A DNA stretch of 64,000 nucleotides, from the sequence record ON286973; one strand, given 5' to 3'. Source of the DNA: Escherichia phage A51.2. The notes beneath the pieces were generated by a model. It was not told where the DNA came from, searched no databases, and saw only the letters and a list, made by a program, of their open reading frames with translations. A program made the translations under genes and the position numbers. Below are positions 3,831-43,109 of this stretch, one piece after another; position 1 is the stretch's first letter, and each line of letters starts with the position of its first letter.

Positions 3831-4544
3831 ATGCTGAATACTAAATTAATTGACAACCTGGAAAAACTGTCCCAACCTGAAAACTACCTTTGGTCTGCCA
3901 ACTGGGTGGAAAACTGGAACCGTGTGGCAGCTAAAGTGAAAAAATCATACACACCGTTCGAATTACAGCTTAGCTTCATTGAGGAAGAGTTCAATGAAGT
4001 TTTGGAAGAGCTGGAAAAAGGGGATGGTGGAGATCACCTGCTAAAAGAGGCCTGCGATCTTCACGTTGTCACAAGTTATGCCGCTTATCTTGTTAATGAC
4101 AATCACGAAAAGTGGTCAAACCTGTTTGATAATCCACGAGGTCTTAAGTTCAAGATCGGTGAGTTCTATGATACACTGATCGCTGCGAAAAACACCTCTA
4201 AGCAAAGAGCATCCGCTTACCGCTTAGCAGAGTTGTCAACAGCTTTGCTGTTCCAGCTTCGCGGCGATGTGTGCGGGATGATGCGTAAGGTTATCAAATC
4301 GAATGACAGCAAGTTTGCACGGGTCAACCATCTACGGTATTCACACGGTGCCAGTGCAGATATGCCTGCTGAACAACTCATCGAGTTGGAGATTAAAGAT
4401 CTTGAGCGACGCTTTGATGGTCGATATGAAGGTTTTGTTGCTAAGGAAGAATTCTACAACGGTAATAAAGTTATCATATTCCTTGACAGTAAAGGTAAGA
4501 TCATGAAGCCTTCGAGCTTCAAGGATGTAACAGAGTATATTTAA
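3831..4544 (+). CDS. MazG-like nucleoside triphosphate pyrophosphohydrolase (putative)
   Basis: EEEFNEVLEELEKGD ... EACDL fits the MazG E-x-x-E ... E-x-x-D metal-binding pattern. Confidence 0.5.
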   Translation: MLNTKLIDNLEKLSQPENYLWSANWVENWNRVAAKVKKSYTPFELQLSFIEEEFNEVLEELEKGDGGDHLLKEACDLHVVTSYAAYLVNDNHEKWSNLFDNPRGLKFKIGEFYDTLIAAKNTSKQRASAYRLAELSTALLFQLRGDVCGMMRKVIKSNDSKFARVNHLRYSHGASADMPAEQLIELEIKDLERRFDGRYEGFVAKEEFYNGNKVIIFLDSKGKIMKPSSFKDVTEYI

Positions 4545-39419: not shown

Positions 39420-39521
39420 ATGGGATACACAATGAAAACATTGTCAGAGGTTTTGGTGGTGATCCTGATGATCATTACGTCCATAGTGGCTGTTGCCGGA
39501 ATACTCACGGGTGGAACATGA
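39420..39521 (+). CDS. Small membrane peptide, 33 aa (MGYTMKTLSEVLVVILMIITSIVAVAGILTGGT)
   Basis: Promoter and GGAGA RBS upstream; the long track ORFs 39317..39730 (+) and 39248..39589 (-) overlap it in other frames. Confidence 0.3.
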   Translation: MGYTMKTLSEVLVVILMIITSIVAVAGILTGGT

Positions 39522-39851
39522 TAAACACACATGCATCTGAAGAGACATCCAAAGGAGTGACTATATGTCCCTTGACTGAGCCAGTGCAAGAGGAAAACTT
39601 CGATTCTGAAGATTCTTCATCTTCGCTCCAGGTAGATCCTGAGGCTGATGACCTGACGTGGGAAGACATCGTAGATATCTGGTTCTCTATTATGCCTGAG
39701 CACGAAGAGTTCAGGGGTGGTAGACTATGAAGCACCGAGCCCACACAGGTTCCTCATGCTGAAGCATGGCCTGAAGAGGCAAACGTGCATAATTCCTGTG
39801 CATCGGAACGTATAAAACCCTGTTCACACTCTCATTTCCAGAGGAGATTTC

Positions 39852-40067
39852 ATGAAGATAGAAATATTTGGTGGAGCTGACAACACTCGTGGCCTGATTT
39901 ACCTTGAATTCGATGAATCATACCTGCCAGAGGTGTTAAATATAGACTCTGTTGCTGATGCTTTGGGAGTAAGTCCTAAAGATCTCTACTCTGGTGCTGA
40001 GATTGATGGTTGGGAGGAGACCATGAACATTGATTTCAGTGAAGTAGAGGATGAACCGCTGGACTGA
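39852..40067 (+). CDS. Small acidic protein, paralog family A (MKIEIFGG ... VEDEPLD)
   Basis: AGAGGAG RBS; family A N-terminus. Confidence 0.45.
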   Translation: MKIEIFGGADNTRGLIYLEFDESYLPEVLNIDSVADALGVSPKDLYSGAEIDGWEETMNIDFSEVEDEPLD

Positions 40068-40194
40068 CGCACAATTAGCTGCCCGGCCAAAGTGCTGGAA
40101 GCACCTATAACACATCTTTCAACTAAATTTCCCACCACCACAATCACTTACCTTCCACACATGACTGTTTGCTTGTTTAGTGAGCAGTCATGCC

Positions 40195-40222
40195 TTGACA
40201 TTCTTGCCTATCCTGATAAAAT
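40195..40222 (+). promoter_or_regulatory. Sigma70-like promoter, TTGACA-16bp-TAAAAT, inside the ORF-free region
   Basis: Read directly; preceded by inverted repeat CATGACTG ... CAGTCATG. Confidence 0.4.
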
Positions 40223-41588
40223 TAAGTTCTTCTCTTTTCTTTTACCGAGTAATTCGGGTTTTCTGTTCTCTTCGGTTTGAAGGGGTATAGAGATACACCT
40301 GAGTGAACAGGGTGAACAACCGAACCATTAGCTATGGCATTAGCATGGCGAAGCGGACGGGTGACGAAAGAGGGGCCGGAGGACACCAGTCACTGCCATA
40401 TGATATATGGGTGATAACCTGAAGAGTCTGAATAAGTGTTTAAGTACCAGTCAGAGGAAAAGGTGAATGGTAGCCGAAGGGGGGAGGGGGGTTTCTTGTA
40501 TCTTTAATTTGTATATTATGTATACACTTGTAAACCAATCTAATCTGAATCTGTTTACCACACAAAGCGGATAGAGACAAATATTGCCTATTAAACTTGA
40601 ATTATTTATAGAAAATACCACAACACCCCTTAAGTCTTTGATTTTACACACAAATCCTACAGATATTCAACCTCCATATTTAACATACTTGTAACATATT
40701 CCATACTCTACCTGCCTGATCAATTTCCCCAACTACATTCTCATATTTCCCCTGTCTGTACTACCCTGCCCCACCGGGAGTCCCGTCATATCTGGCTTTC
40801 CAGCAAATATCACACCCACAAATATCATGCCTGAAGAGGGTTTCATCCCATAATACCTGCCTTGCCTGAAGAGCGCTTCATACACCACGTAAATTTTTTA
40901 ATTGACCTCCCCTGCCCCGCCGGAGAGGTTGGCTTTTCCCACACAGACCTGGAGAGTCAGCCAGAAATATCTGAATAGGCCCAGTTCTACCACGATTTTG
41001 ACCTGACCTACAGGAGCGCTGCCAGGCGGACGAAATGGGAATACTTCTCATTCTTATAACAATTCTCAAATATCGAGGCAGTGAGGCAAATTAATAGGCC
41101 AGGCCGTTCACACAGTGGCACAACATTTGCAACCTATCTTGTGGGGTGAATGAGAATACCTATCATTGTGAGAACCATTATCATTACGGGCAATTTAACA
41201 TAATACCCATTATGCGCACCACTGGCGATCCATACAGGGATTGATAACACGAGTTACAGTTTACGCATATAACAATCATATTTCTTACTATTTGTGTGGG
41301 ATATAGTTAGCAGCCGATAGATTAGATATTGACCTGTGGACTTCCAACCGTCTAGACGTCTAAGCGCCCACACAACAAGGCTTATACATACATTACTGAA
41401 TGTAAACAGGGCCGCAAAAATGCTACCATACCAGTTTGTAAATTTTTCATGCAGCACTTGACAAAGAGGAGGAAAACTTGTCTGACACAATGTCACACAA
41501 TATGACACAATAACGGCTGTTACCATTCCATATCTCACTGTTTACGCATAGACTGTTTACGCCTGGATAGTTTACACAGATATGATAA

Positions 41589-41885
41589 GCCATGCCATTC
41601 GTTTGCATGAAAACAATTAACAAGATAACAATCGACAAGTTAATAATCTTTCGCTGGCTATGCCAGGTGACTAGGTCACCCCTTCGGGCGTTCCTATGAC
41701 ATAATATAAAAGCAGGGCAACTATTAGCAGATCTATAGTTGCCTTGCTTGTTATGTCATGATTAACTAAATACAAGGCAACTATGATCTGATTAATAGTT
41801 TGCAGACAAACTATCACGGGGGTGATGGTTACTGCTTTTATATTATGTCGCGACTCCGTCGCGCCATGCCATTCGTTTGCATAGT
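41589..41885. repeat. Composite repeat: 20-bp direct repeats GCCATGCCATTCGTTTGCAT (41589 and 41865) flanking nested inverted repeats (CATAATATAAAAGCAG/CTGCTTTTATATTATG; GGCAACTAT/ATAGTTGCC; GGTGAC-TAG-GTCACC; CGCGAC/GTCGCG)
   Basis: Read directly. Confidence 0.7.
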
Positions 41886-42494
41886 TGCCTTATTGTTATG
41901 AATAAAACAATTGCATTGTTAATGATTTCTTATCTTTCTATTAGTCATCTAATGATTTCAGTCAGGATAGTAATGTACAGTAAACATTAGACGACTAAAG
42001 ATTTCTCTGTTTATGATAACCTATCGTGACAATTTCGGACTGTTTACGAAAAATGTTGACACCTGAGCTGATTTATGTTATGCAGTTTACACGAATAATT
42101 ATTTTATACAGGTATTGACTATTCTGTTATTCTATGGTTGGAATAAATACTTAGCAGACTATAGAATGGTGAGCGTACGTAAATTCTGAGATCTGGCGGC
42201 TATAGTTATACTCGATTTTTCACGTAGAACGCGCTTTTGTGGTTATGTAAGTGTATGACTTATAAGAATTTTTATTTGTTGACAAGATATTGAAGATGTG
42301 CATCAGGTTAAAATTTGTGCAATAGCGGCATTACGTGCAATTTTGAGGGAGAAAACGGGTAAAAATGGCCCTGCTACCACACAATGAAAAATTATGCAAT
42401 AGTTATTTTATATGTATGTTTGTACAGTGTGTGGGATTGATGGCTAGTCAATTATTCCACTTGCCAGGCTGGGCCGTTTGTGGTAGGGGGAAGA

Positions 42495-42523
42495 GCAGAC
42501 AAAAAGAAAGGGGCCTAAGCCCC
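42495..42523 (-). terminator. Rho-independent terminator for the minus-strand block: GGGGC-TTAG-GCCCC followed by UUUCUUUUUG (minus-strand sense)
   Basis: Read directly, just downstream of the minus gene ending at 42544. Confidence 0.7.
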
Positions 42524-42543
42524 TTGATAATTCAGTTAAAAAA

Positions 42544-42963
42544 TTATAATGATTCGTATATTTCATAGATTCGATTTGCCAGGTCGTTACGATAACGAAA
42601 TTTTTCATCACGTTTGATCATCAGATCCTTAAATCCATATTCTTTAAGCACTTCATTAACTTTATAGCGGCATACCTTCATATTATCCTGAGCGTCACCG
42701 ATAAACTTGTTGCTATGATGCATGGCTTTGATCTCTTCCTCCAGGACCAGGGCAACTATGCGGACCGGATCAAGCTGATAGGCGGTAACATCCATGCGGC
42801 ATTGCAAACGGCTTTTTACGTCTGCCACCGGATATACTGCAACCTCTTCCCCGTCAACATTGACAATAATTAGTTTACCATCAATTTCAAAACCTTTCGC
42901 CGCCGGACCGTGACAAAAAGCGTTATCAAAGCTATATGCCGGATTATTAGATTTAATGTTCAT
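42544..42963 (-). CDS. Hypothetical protein
   Basis: 139-aa ORF. Confidence 0.45.
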   Translation of the reverse strand: MNIKSNNPAYSFDNAFCHGPAAKGFEIDGKLIIVNVDGEEVAVYPVADVKSRLQCRMDVTAYQLDPVRIVALVLEEEIKAMHHSNKFIGDAQDNMKVCRYKVNEVLKEYGFKDLMIKRDEKFRYRNDLANRIYEIYESL

Positions 42964-43109
42964 GGTGTTTTTACCTCTTAGTTAATTTTCTTACAACTTC
43001 CCTTCAAAAAAGAATATAGCAAAACTGCCGATCCTTGTCAACCAAGGATAGCATAATTTTTTATGTGATCAAGGGGCTTTATTGCCCCCCTGATCGTGCA
43101 ACTTGTTTA

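What the first reader, a model, noticed from the sequence alone, without database searches (positions are those of the whole stretch)
41589..41885. Composite element with flanking direct repeats and nested inverted repeats
GCCATGCCATTCGTTTGCAT occurs at 41589 and 41865, and the similarity extends into the following AAAACAATT ... GTTAAT(A/G)AT(C/T)T segments. Between the copies lie a 16-bp terminal inverted repeat pair (CATAATATAAAAGCAG ... CTGCTTTTATATTATG), a 9-bp hairpin (GGCAACTAT ... ATAGTTGCC), the perfect palindrome GGTGACTAGGTCACC, and CGCGAC ... GTCGCG. The architecture resembles either a small mobile or duplicated element or an origin-like cruciform region.
Basis: seen in the sequence. 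Interest (0 to 1): 0.55.

Follow-up and report, generated by a model that had tools for sequence, protein, structure and literature searches.

The report
Conserved folded element beside phage genome end
The repeats are real and mark a ~165-base, strongly folding non-coding element, probably a small RNA gene, that sits about 200 bases inside the terminal repeat of rV5-like E. coli phages, has a covariation-supported counterpart in phi92/phAPEC8-like phages, and is not a mobile element.

Summary
The window is an rV5-like phage (Vequintavirus). The finding lies in its ~2.8 kb ORF-free gap, 107 bp right of the 458-bp direct terminal repeat (DTR, ~41025-41482). The repeats are real: the 20-nt direct repeat (DR) is at 41589 and 41863 (not 41865), and the inverted repeat is 18 bp and perfect. 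The inverted repeats form one element: an 18-bp closing helix (41698-41715/41832-41849) around three hairpins, plus a 3' GC hairpin ending at DR2.

It sits at this locus in 117 of 119 relatives at 96-100% identity. No copy occurs elsewhere in phages, E. coli genomes or plasmids, so it is not mobile. Phage FV3 alone has one DR and precisely lacks the segment between the DRs, most simply a DR-mediated deletion.

Variation avoids paired positions (4/98 against 21/68). Stephanstirmvirinae phages (133 records) carry an analogous element at the same place, distance and strand. That element has 13 compensatory pairs, about 41 G.U cells against 1 A.C, and no Rfam match. A covariance model built from it finds only this site in the 64 kb (26.7 bits).

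Best reading: an undescribed structured non-coding RNA. A strand-specific single-stranded-DNA element acting in genome-end processing is the main rival. Function is untested.

The parts
41025..41482 (.). Context: direct terminal repeat (DTR) of the virion DNA, inferred by homology
   Evidence: Bases 1-470 of the Gotham record (its annotated repeat_region is 1-459) align to window 41025-41493 at 94%. The literature gives 459-bp and 458-bp terminal repeats for Vequintavirus (PMC7471380, PMC6563267).
41483..41512 (+). GACAYAAT (TGnCAYAAT) motif copies starting at the right edge of the DTR; the same motif forms both arms of the closing helix
   Evidence: 4 of the 9 copies in 64 kb lie at 41484, 41504, 41698 (+) and 41842 (-).
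41537..41582 (+). Array of TGTT(T/C)AC repeats with a 15-16 bp period; copy number varies between phages
   Evidence: 3 copies here, at least 8 in rV5. This is the hypervariable part of the gap.
41589..41608 (+). DR1, the left copy of the exact 20-nt direct repeat
   Evidence: It is invariant apart from a C/A change at position 7, even though it sits in a hypervariable stretch. It is missing in V18.
41647..41690 (+).
   Evidence: Present in 54 Vequintavirus records only. An identical inverted copy lies 2 kb away in L007. Relatives with compensatory stem changes occur in two unrelated phage-like E. coli plasmids.
41698..41715 (+). 5' arm of the 18-bp closing helix
   Evidence: I1, 100% complementary; invariant in 21 of 21 sequences.
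41716..41743 (+). Hairpin 1 (GGCAACTAT, 10-nt loop, ATAGTTGCC). It can alternatively extend to 41710-41749, competing with the inner 6 bp of the closing helix.
   Evidence: I9. Variation is confined to the loop. The T41744C change turns a G.T into a G-C in the extended form.
41750..41775 (+). Variable linker; site of the 33-bp insertion carried by rV5-type phages
   Evidence: (10 records).
41776..41803 (+). Hairpin 2, a diverged tandem copy of hairpin 1 with a one-base bulge
   Evidence: D3, 60-nt period, 76% identity. The common T41799A variant only moves the bulge.
41809..41830 (+). Hairpin 3 (AACTATCAC-GGGG-GTGATGGTT); resembles the tip of hairpin B in Stephanstirmvirinae
   Evidence: Pair 41812:41827 is U.G in most sequences, C-G in EI-SP-GF and U.U in two.
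41832..41849 (+). 3' arm of the closing helix (U-rich: CUGCUUUUAUAUUAUGUC)
   Evidence: invariant.
41849..41863 (+). 3' GC hairpin CGCGAC-UCC-GUCGCG; its last base is the first base of DR2
   Evidence: It aligns to the covarying 3' hairpin of model R1. Invariant.
41863..41882 (+). DR2, the right copy of the 20-nt direct repeat; its last two bases begin a third ATAGTTGCC copy (41881-41889)
   Evidence: conserved in every relative, including FV3.

Best explanation
The nested inverted repeats are one structured single-stranded element of about 165 nt (41698-41863, + strand). An 18-bp helix joins its two ends around three hairpins, forming a four-way junction, and a short GC hairpin follows.

Most likely it is a small non-coding RNA, or the structured core of a longer non-coding transcript. 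It would be read from the DTR-proximal end of the genome inward by the host RNA polymerase and would act in trans as an accessory RNA that is dispensable for plaque formation.

The two 20-nt direct repeats are separately conserved flanking sites, probably binding, promoter-like or processing sites. They are not target-site duplications. As a side effect they allow precise loss of the element by recombination or replication slippage, which is the state seen in FV3.

Shown here: the anatomy, the conservation, the constraint on paired positions, single-locus synteny, and a covariation-supported strand-specific analogue in a second subfamily.

Inferred: that the folding molecule is RNA, the transcription direction and promoter, the role of the DRs, and any trans function.
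For: Location and conservation:
- The site is 216 bp inside the DTR edge, within the only large ORF-free gap.
- 117 of 119 records carry it at 96-100% identity, while the adjacent 41500-41700 stretch is only 44-65% conserved.

Constraint on the fold in Vequintavirus:
- Only 4 of 98 paired positions vary against 21 of 68 unpaired (Fisher p = 3e-6). Two of those four keep pairing (a bulge shift, and U.G to C-G).
- One-base indels and the 33-bp insertion fall in loops or the linker, which excludes protein coding.
- The + strand folds better in 21 of 21 sequences.

Counterpart in Stephanstirmvirinae:
- Schickermooser has the same layout 200 bp from its 329-bp DTR, on the same strand, between the DTR and the ORF164 homologue.
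- That family spans 133 records.
- An 8-sequence alignment gives 54 pairs, 99.1% paired, with 13 pairs changed on both sides. None of 500 shuffles reach the observed covariation.
- G.U cells number about 41 against 1 A.C, and the minimum free energy is 20-23 kcal/mol better on one strand.

Link between the two:
- Model R1, built from that family, hits window 41700-41875 over its full length at 26.7 bits (E = 2.9e-5 over 64 kb). The next unrelated hit scores 9.6 bits.
- R1 hits every Vequintavirus locus that has the core and does not hit FV3.

No Rfam 15 family matches either element.
Against: - There are no expression data, and I found no conserved sigma-70 promoter or canonical terminator.
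- Within Vequintavirus 46 of 49 pairs never vary, so there is no covariation of its own.
- RNAalifold prefers an alternative rod fold for the Vequintavirus alignment.
- The link to the sister family rests on structure and position only. A sequence-only profile (nhmmer) does not find the core.
- Reverse-strand R1 hits reach 16-27 bits, so the model cannot assign the strand here.
- The stems are invariant in sequence, more than a helix alone would require. That also fits protein-binding half-sites.
- A constant distance from the DTR edge in both subfamilies fits a DNA-end function at least as well as an RNA gene.
Confidence: 0.5

Rival explanations
1. The element works as strand-specific single-stranded DNA in genome-end biology. 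When that strand is exposed in replicating concatemers, a hairpin or multi-hairpin fold would serve as a priming or nicking site for duplicating the DTR, or as a recognition or pause site for terminase. The TGTTTAC and GACAYAAT arrays and the DRs would be protein-binding sites. This resembles the hairpin intermediate and short-repeat arrays at the T7 concatemer junction, or a single-strand initiation signal.
For: - The distance from the DTR edge is constant (216 bp here, 200 bp in Schickermooser) and the orientation is the same in two subfamilies.
- The closing-helix arms carry the motif that is arrayed at the DTR edge.
- An iteron-like array of variable copy number lies adjacent.
- The DNA fold gives z = -8.3.
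- A hairpin in DNA containing the terminal repeat is reported during T7 infection (PMC4281155).
- In many Stephanstirmvirinae records the element lies within 300-800 bp of a record end.
Against: - FV3 lacks the whole element and is a described phage. A cloning or assembly artefact in that record is not excluded.
- Frequent invariant G.U-type pairs are more typical of RNA than of DNA hairpins.
- No matching structure is seen on the other side of the DTR.
Confidence: 0.25
2. The element is a bidirectional intrinsic terminator or insulator between the two convergent transcription blocks. Hairpin 3 plus the U-rich 3' arm would stop + strand transcripts. Hairpin 1 plus the complement of the 5' arm would stop - strand transcripts. 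This would keep transcription out of the DTR and packaging region.
For: - The scan flags 41809-41830 followed by ACTGCTTTTA as terminator-like on the + strand.
- The Murica record annotates hairpin 1 as a - strand terminator.
- The element lies between convergent gene blocks.
Against: - The - strand block already ends in a strong terminator at 42525-42508, about 660 bp away.
- Terminators do not need a 165-nt multi-branched fold with an invariant closing helix, a covarying 3' hairpin that has no U tract, or flanking 20-nt repeats.
- The T tracts lie inside the closing helix.
Confidence: 0.1
3. The element is a small non-autonomous mobile element (MITE-like), or an insertion with a 20-bp target duplication, and FV3 is the empty site.
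For: - An 18-bp perfect inverted repeat encloses 152 bp.
- It is flanked by exact direct repeats.
- FV3 has exactly [left flank]-DR-[right flank].
- Near-identity of the core beside a divergent left flank could suggest recent spread.
Against: - There is a single locus in every genome and no copy anywhere else; only 3 close relatives turned up in metagenomes.
- The DRs lie 90 nt and 13 nt from the inverted repeat, not next to it.
- An analogous element at the syntenic site in another subfamily implies the element is ancestral and FV3 lost it.
- A second FV3-named phage carries it.
- A palindrome flanked by direct repeats is a classic substrate for deletion (established knowledge).
Confidence: 0.03

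Closest known systems
DTR-proximal structured element of Stephanstirmvirinae (Phapecoctavirus, Justusliebigvirus/phi92 and allied Klebsiella and Citrobacter phages); defined here as alignment A3 and model R1, and to my knowledge undescribed
   Same: - AU-rich closing helix joining the 5' and 3' ends, a multi-way junction, and an adjacent 3' GC hairpin with a UCC-containing loop.
- About 200 bp inside the DTR edge, on the same strand, between the DTR and the ORF164 homologue.
- The hairpin tip AACUAUC...GAUGGUU is shared.
- The covariance model hits at E about 1e-5.
   Different: - No sequence similarity detectable by BLAST or nhmmer.
- Three inner hairpins here instead of two.
- 20-nt flanking DRs occur only in Vequintavirus.
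- Covariation is shown only for the sister family.
phi29 packaging RNA (pRNA, Rfam RF00044)
   Same: As I recall it, an RNA of about 170 nt encoded close to a genome end, with a helix formed by its 5' and 3' ends, a three-way junction and a dispensable 3' hairpin.
   Different: - No Rfam match.
- No complementary loop pair for ring formation was seen on inspection of A3.
- These phages use DTR packaging, not protein-primed genomes.
- The resemblance is one of shape only.
T7 concatemer-junction region (short-repeat arrays flanking the terminal repeat, and a hairpin intermediate in concatemer processing)
   Same: Short-repeat arrays lie directly next to the terminal repeat, and a hairpin-forming sequence lies close to the repeat. 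The hairpin is cited in PMC4281155; the arrays are from my own knowledge of the T7 sequence.
   Different: - No sequence relation.
- The T7 role is itself only a model.
- The element here appears dispensable (FV3) and shows an RNA-like pattern of wobble pairs.
Single-strand origins and single-strand initiation signals of plasmids and of G4/M13-type phages
   Same: From my own knowledge: strand- and orientation-specific folded elements of 100-200 nt made of several hairpins.
   Different: Those act in rolling-circle or single-stranded DNA replicons. No such replication mode is known for these myoviruses, and none was tested here.

Membership tests
   18 bp, perfect, invariant; aligned to the R1 closing helix.
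   It has three inner hairpins instead of two.
   216 bp here against 200 bp in Schickermooser.
   26.7 bits, E = 2.9e-5 in 64 kb; the next unrelated hit is 9.6 bits. Caveats: the calibration is rough, and reverse-strand hits reach 16-27 bits.
   blastn finds similarity only under the ORF164 gene. An nhmmer profile of A3 does not find the core.
   13 of 54 pairs in the sister family. None in Vequintavirus, where 46 of 49 pairs never vary; there the support is only the depletion of variation in paired positions.
MITE / small non-autonomous transposon | Target-site duplication directly abutting the terminal inverted repeats | tested here: not met
   The DRs are 90 nt and 13 nt from the inverted-repeat arms, and the immediate flanks (CCTAT / GCGAC) do not match.
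MITE / small non-autonomous transposon | Multiple copies at unrelated sites | tested here: not met
   One locus per genome. No match in E. coli genomes; among plasmids, one full match in a 137.6-kb record (CP057073) and only mini-hairpin-module fragments otherwise.
MITE / small non-autonomous transposon | Filled and empty sites among close relatives | tested here: inconclusive
   One clear empty site (FV3) among 119 records; it is equally well explained by deletion between the DRs.
Iteron-type or cruciform replication origin | Iterons, an AT-rich unwinding region and dyad symmetry | tested here: inconclusive
   A TGTTTAC array, an AT-rich spacer at 41609-41646 and a palindrome are all present. 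No initiator protein is known.
Iteron-type or cruciform replication origin | Indispensability in cis | tested here: not met
   FV3 lacks the segment between the DRs. Caveat: that rests on a single record.
Intrinsic (Rho-independent) terminator | GC-containing stem followed directly by a U tract, at the end of a transcription unit | tested here: inconclusive
   The motif is present on both strands, but it lies 660 bp beyond the nearest unit's own terminator.
phi29-type pRNA | Match to the Rfam model; complementary loops for oligomerisation | tested here: not met
   No Rfam hit. No loop complementarity on inspection.

The most novel reading that the evidence does not exclude
The element would be one member of a previously unrecognised class of structured RNAs (or strand-specific DNA folds) fixed about 200 bp inside the terminal repeat of large enterobacterial myoviruses, taking part in genome-end biology. 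It could prime or guide duplication of the DTR, or recruit terminase. That would be functionally comparable to a packaging RNA or a primer RNA, in phages thought to need only protein terminases.
Probability: 0.12. Interest if true: 0.85.

Novelty: new variant of a known kind. Interest (0 to 1): 0.58.

Why it matters
rV5-like and phAPEC8/phi92-like phages are widely isolated and used in therapeutic and biocontrol cocktails. Yet the 2-3 kb gap that holds their genome ends is labelled only 'non-coding' (PMC3606486).

This work places a conserved, strongly folding element at a fixed distance from the terminal repeat in about 250 genomes of two subfamilies. One branch has solid covariation support, and no Rfam family matches.

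If it is an RNA, it is a new phage non-coding RNA class with a natural knockout (FV3) to work from. If it acts as DNA, it marks the cis machinery for end formation in a phage group whose packaging is unstudied.

Either way, automated 'hypothetical protein' calls over this region in several records are wrong. The palindrome flanked by DRs is also a predictable hotspot for deletion and misassembly.

Tried and rejected
- **Mobile element:** rejected. It is a single locus, has no adjacent target-site duplication, and has no copies elsewhere.
- **Protein coding:** rejected. One-base indels and a 33-bp insertion occur among near-identical relatives. The nearby + strand ORF 42365-42568 is not conserved either.
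- **Known RNA families and tRNA/tmRNA:** none found.
- **Similarity extending beyond the DR:** not significant.
- **Rod-like single long hairpin** (the minimum-free-energy and RNAalifold choice): disfavoured, because the loop-loop pairs it needs are broken in several relatives and the covariation term is +0.91.
- **Sigma-70 promoter from the TTGCAT end of either DR:** the spacing and the -10 element are not conserved, and the scan shows no enrichment (13 found against 9.5 expected).
- **pRNA-like loop complementarity:** not seen.
- **More diverse members:** IMG/VR and metagenome scans returned only close relatives.
- **Literature:** nothing describes the element. The PhageMaP essentiality map concerns a Felixounavirus and is irrelevant.
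- **Sequence-only profile link between the two families:** negative.

Full report
**Where we are.** The window matches Vequintavirus (rV5-like) phage genomes at 93-95% over 39500-43000.
- The finding lies in a stretch of about 2.8 kb without conserved ORFs, between a + strand gene block ending near 39730-40067 and a - strand block whose last gene (rV5 ORF164) ends at 42544.
- The rV5 paper marks this stretch simply as 'non-coding' and could not locate an origin from skew analysis (PMC3606486).
- The Gotham record opens with an annotated 459-bp repeat. Its bases 1-470 align to window 41025-41493 at 94%.
- Vequintaviruses are reported to have 458-459-bp terminal repeats and a fixed packaging start (PMC7471380, PMC6563267).
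- So the physical genome ends lie in this gap, and the finding starts 107 bp to the right of the DTR edge.

**The observation.** Most of it holds.
- The 20-mer GCCATGCCATTCGTTTGCAT occurs exactly twice in 64 kb, at 41589 and 41863. No further match appears at up to 3 mismatches, and none is expected by chance.
- The 'terminal' inverted repeat is 18 nt and perfect (41698-41715 / 41832-41849).
- GGCAACTAT / ATAGTTGCC forms a 9-bp hairpin, extendable to 15 bp. The 9-mer occurs four times in 175 bp against 0.39 expected per 64 kb.
- CGCGAC-TCC-GTCGCG is real.
- GGTGACTAGGTCACC is an interrupted inverted repeat, not a perfect palindrome.
- The claimed extension of similarity beyond the 20-mer is one AT-rich 9-mer at a different offset. 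116 of 2000 shuffles score as well.
- The stretch folds far better than shuffles on either strand, as RNA or as DNA (z -8.3 to -9.1).

**Anatomy.** The inverted repeats are not independent features. They make one unit.
- An 18-bp closing helix encloses hairpin 1 (41716-41743), a variable linker, hairpin 2 (41776-41803), and hairpin 3 (41809-41830).
- Hairpin 2 is a diverged tandem copy of hairpin 1 with a bulge.
- A GC hairpin (41849-41863) follows, and its last base is the first base of DR2.
- DR1 lies 90 nt upstream of the closing helix, so the direct repeats do not abut the inverted repeat.
- Between DR1 and the helix sit an AT-rich spacer and a 44-nt mini-hairpin module.
- Between the DTR edge and DR1 lie GACAYAAT motif copies, the same motif that forms the closing-helix arms.
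- A TGTT(T/C)AC array with a 15-16-bp period also lies there.

**Comparison within the genus.**
- The core (41690-41862) is present once, at the same place, in 117 of the 119 records that match the surrounding 601 nt. Identity is at least 99% in 45 records and 95-99% in 62. Ten records appear as 80-90% because of a 33-bp insertion in the linker.
- Both DR copies are kept, with spacing from 213 to 294 bp.
- The stretch 41500-41700 is by contrast the least conserved part of the whole gap, at 44-65% identity to the window. The repeat array varies in copy number there, and the mini-hairpin module is present in only 54 records.
- V18 lacks the array, DR1 and half of the module, but keeps the core and DR2.
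- FV3 alone among the loci fetched has a single DR, joined as [left flank of DR1]-DR-[right flank of DR2]. The 254 bp between the repeats are cleanly missing and are not elsewhere in that record.
- A second phage named after FV3 has the full arrangement.

**Not a mobile element.**
- No second copy exists in the window, in 50,697 phage records outside this locus, or in 5,426 E. coli genomes.
- The plasmid set contains one full match, in a 137.6-kb record that is evidently a Vequintavirus genome. Otherwise it has only fragments of the mini-hairpin module.
- A metagenome scan returned three close relatives among 111 chance matches.
- There is no duplication adjacent to the inverted repeat.
- A palindrome flanked by direct repeats is a well-known deletion substrate (established knowledge). 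FV3 is therefore most simply a loss, whether natural or introduced during cloning.

**Is the fold selected?** Evidence from 21 Vequintavirus sequences:
- 25 positions vary between 41698 and 41863. Only 4 of the 98 paired positions vary, against 21 of the 68 unpaired (Fisher p = 3e-6).
- Of the four paired sites, T41799A merely moves the bulge of hairpin 2, and T41812C turns a U.G into a C-G. Two sites (41736, 41827) break a pair in one or two sequences each.
- T41744C turns the G.T of the extended hairpin 1 into a G-C.
- One-base indels and the 33-bp insertion all fall in loops or the linker. That also excludes a protein-coding reading.
- There is no compensatory double change: 46 of 49 pairs never vary. 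The genus therefore cannot confirm the fold by covariation.
- RNAalifold even prefers a rod-like alternative. I disfavour it because its loop-loop pairs are broken in several relatives.
- The + strand folds better than the - strand in 21 of 21 sequences, by 0.3-17 kcal/mol.

**An analogue in another subfamily.**
- ORF164 has 92%-identical homologues in Phapecoctavirus (Stephanstirmvirinae).
- In phage Schickermooser the DNA between that gene and its 329-bp DTR has no alignable similarity to the window.
- Yet 200 bp from the DTR edge, on the equivalent strand, it carries the same layout: a closing helix of about 15 bp around two long hairpins, followed by a short GC hairpin.
- Homologues occur in 133 records (Phapecoctavirus, Justusliebigvirus including phi92, Citrobacter Tr1, Klebsiella phages and others), often within a few hundred bases of a record end.
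- Eight diverse members align with 54 pairs, 99.1% of cells paired, and 13 pairs changed on both sides. None of 500 shuffles reach the observed covariation, and shifted registers collapse to 23-52% paired.
- G.U cells outnumber A.C by about 41 to 1.
- The minimum free energy is 20-23 kcal/mol better on one strand in all five diverse members tested.
- A symmetric double-stranded DNA cruciform cannot explain that. One particular strand folds, as RNA or as single-stranded DNA.
- No Rfam 15 family matches.

**Linking the two.**
- A covariance model of the Stephanstirmvirinae alignment (R1) finds one significant site in the whole 64-kb window. It is 41700-41875 on the + strand, full length, at 26.7 bits and E = 2.9e-5. 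The next unrelated hit scores 9.6 bits.
- R1 hits every Vequintavirus locus that has the core (22-29.5 bits) and does not hit FV3.
- The alignment pairs closing helix with closing helix, hairpin 1 with the base of hairpin A (GCAAC...GUUGC), and the two 3' hairpins with their UCC loops.
- Hairpin 3 (AACUAUCAC-GGGG-GUGAUGGUU) resembles the tip of hairpin B (for example AACUAUC-GGU-GAUGGUU in VEcB).
- Caveats are real. The E-values are rough by design. Reverse-strand hits reach 16-27 bits because the elements are palindromic. A sequence-only profile does not find the core.
- I therefore call the two elements positional and structural counterparts, probably homologous. I do not treat homology as proven.

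**Interpretation.**
- The best-supported reading (confidence about 0.5) is a structured non-coding RNA, or the structured core of a longer non-coding transcript, on the + strand. It would run inward from the DTR-proximal genome end, and FV3 shows it to be dispensable for plaque formation.
- Its function is not shown. I infer a trans-acting accessory role, for example as a decoy or regulator of a host or phage factor.
- The two 20-nt repeats are under their own selection, since DR1 stays invariant inside a hypervariable stretch. They are probably two copies of a binding, promoter-like or processing site.
- I could not show a conserved sigma-70 promoter.
- The main rival (about 0.25) is a strand-specific single-stranded-DNA role in end formation or replication. 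It is favoured by the fixed distance from the DTR edge in both subfamilies, the motif shared with the DTR edge and the adjacent iteron-like array. There is a loose precedent in the hairpin intermediate reported for T7 concatemer processing (PMC4281155).
- A bidirectional terminator (about 0.1) explains the U-rich arms but not the rest.
- A mobile element (about 0.03) is contradicted by the evidence above.

**Verdict.** The interpretation as a mobile element or cruciform origin is mostly not supported. The feature is an undescribed, conserved, strand-specific structured element beside the genome terminus. It is worth an RNA-mapping experiment and a clean deletion.

Noticed in passing
window 41647-41690; L007 1164-1207; L017 ~1500-1550; L018 ~1500-1555: A 44-nt module of three mini-hairpins is present or absent among near-identical Vequintavirus genomes (54 records). 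It occurs as an identical inverted copy 2 kb away in one IMG/VR contig. Relatives with compensatory stem changes (CTGGC/GCCAG against CTGCC/GGCAG) occur in two unrelated phage-like E. coli 'plasmids', one of which has three copies. It looks like a small portable structured module; no Rfam match.
   Followed up: partly
L002 (rV5) ~3846-3878, i.e. after window 41750; L012 (YP-6), just after DR1: A module of about 30-33 bp with the core GAGACGARGGCYATGC is inserted in the linker of the element in 10 rV5-type records. A similar module sits after DR1 in YP-6. This is a second small insertion-prone hairpin module.
   Followed up: partly
window 41537-41582 (also 41257, 41401, 42040, 42083): TGTT(T/C)AC repeats with a 15-16-bp period lie directly between the DTR and DR1: 3 copies here and at least 8 in rV5. 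Seven of the 19 copies in 64 kb cluster between 41257 and 42083. They look like iterons; the binding partner is unknown.
   Followed up: partly
window 40150-40500: This stretch of the ORF-free gap is 96-99.8% conserved across 10 relatives, more than the neighbouring genes. It begins with a near-consensus sigma-70 promoter (TTGACA-16-TAAAAT with an upstream TG, 40195-40222). It may be a second non-coding RNA or a cis element.
   Followed up: no
window 41920-41930, 41950-41960, 41996-42006: Three copies of TAA(T/A)GATTTC lie downstream of DR2. The same TAATGATTTC motif recurs downstream of the analogous element in Stephanstirmvirinae (Schickermooser, Tr1).
   Followed up: no
window 40700-40950: A C-rich stretch on the + strand (GC skew -0.39) lies just left of the DTR. 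It contains direct repeats TGCCTGAAGAG(G/C)G and CT(A/C)CCCTGCCCC(A/G)CCGG.
   Followed up: no
public records: About 18-20 GenBank records named 'Campylobacter phage' (MG0656xx), and the E. coli 'plasmid' CP057073 (137.6 kb), carry this Vequintavirus region at about 80-100% identity. They are probably mislabelled or contaminant phage genomes.
   Followed up: no
window 42365-42568 (+): This 67-aa ORF, annotated as a CDS in phage ECP2309, loses its start codon, is frameshifted, or has in-frame stops in several relatives. It is not a conserved gene.
   Followed up: yes
window 42544-42963 (-) against the adjacent gap: The ORF164 protein is about 92% identical between Vequintavirus and Phapecoctavirus, which belong to different subfamilies. 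The non-coding DNA immediately downstream is not alignable. This suggests a recombination boundary at the gene's terminator (42525-42508).
   Followed up: partly
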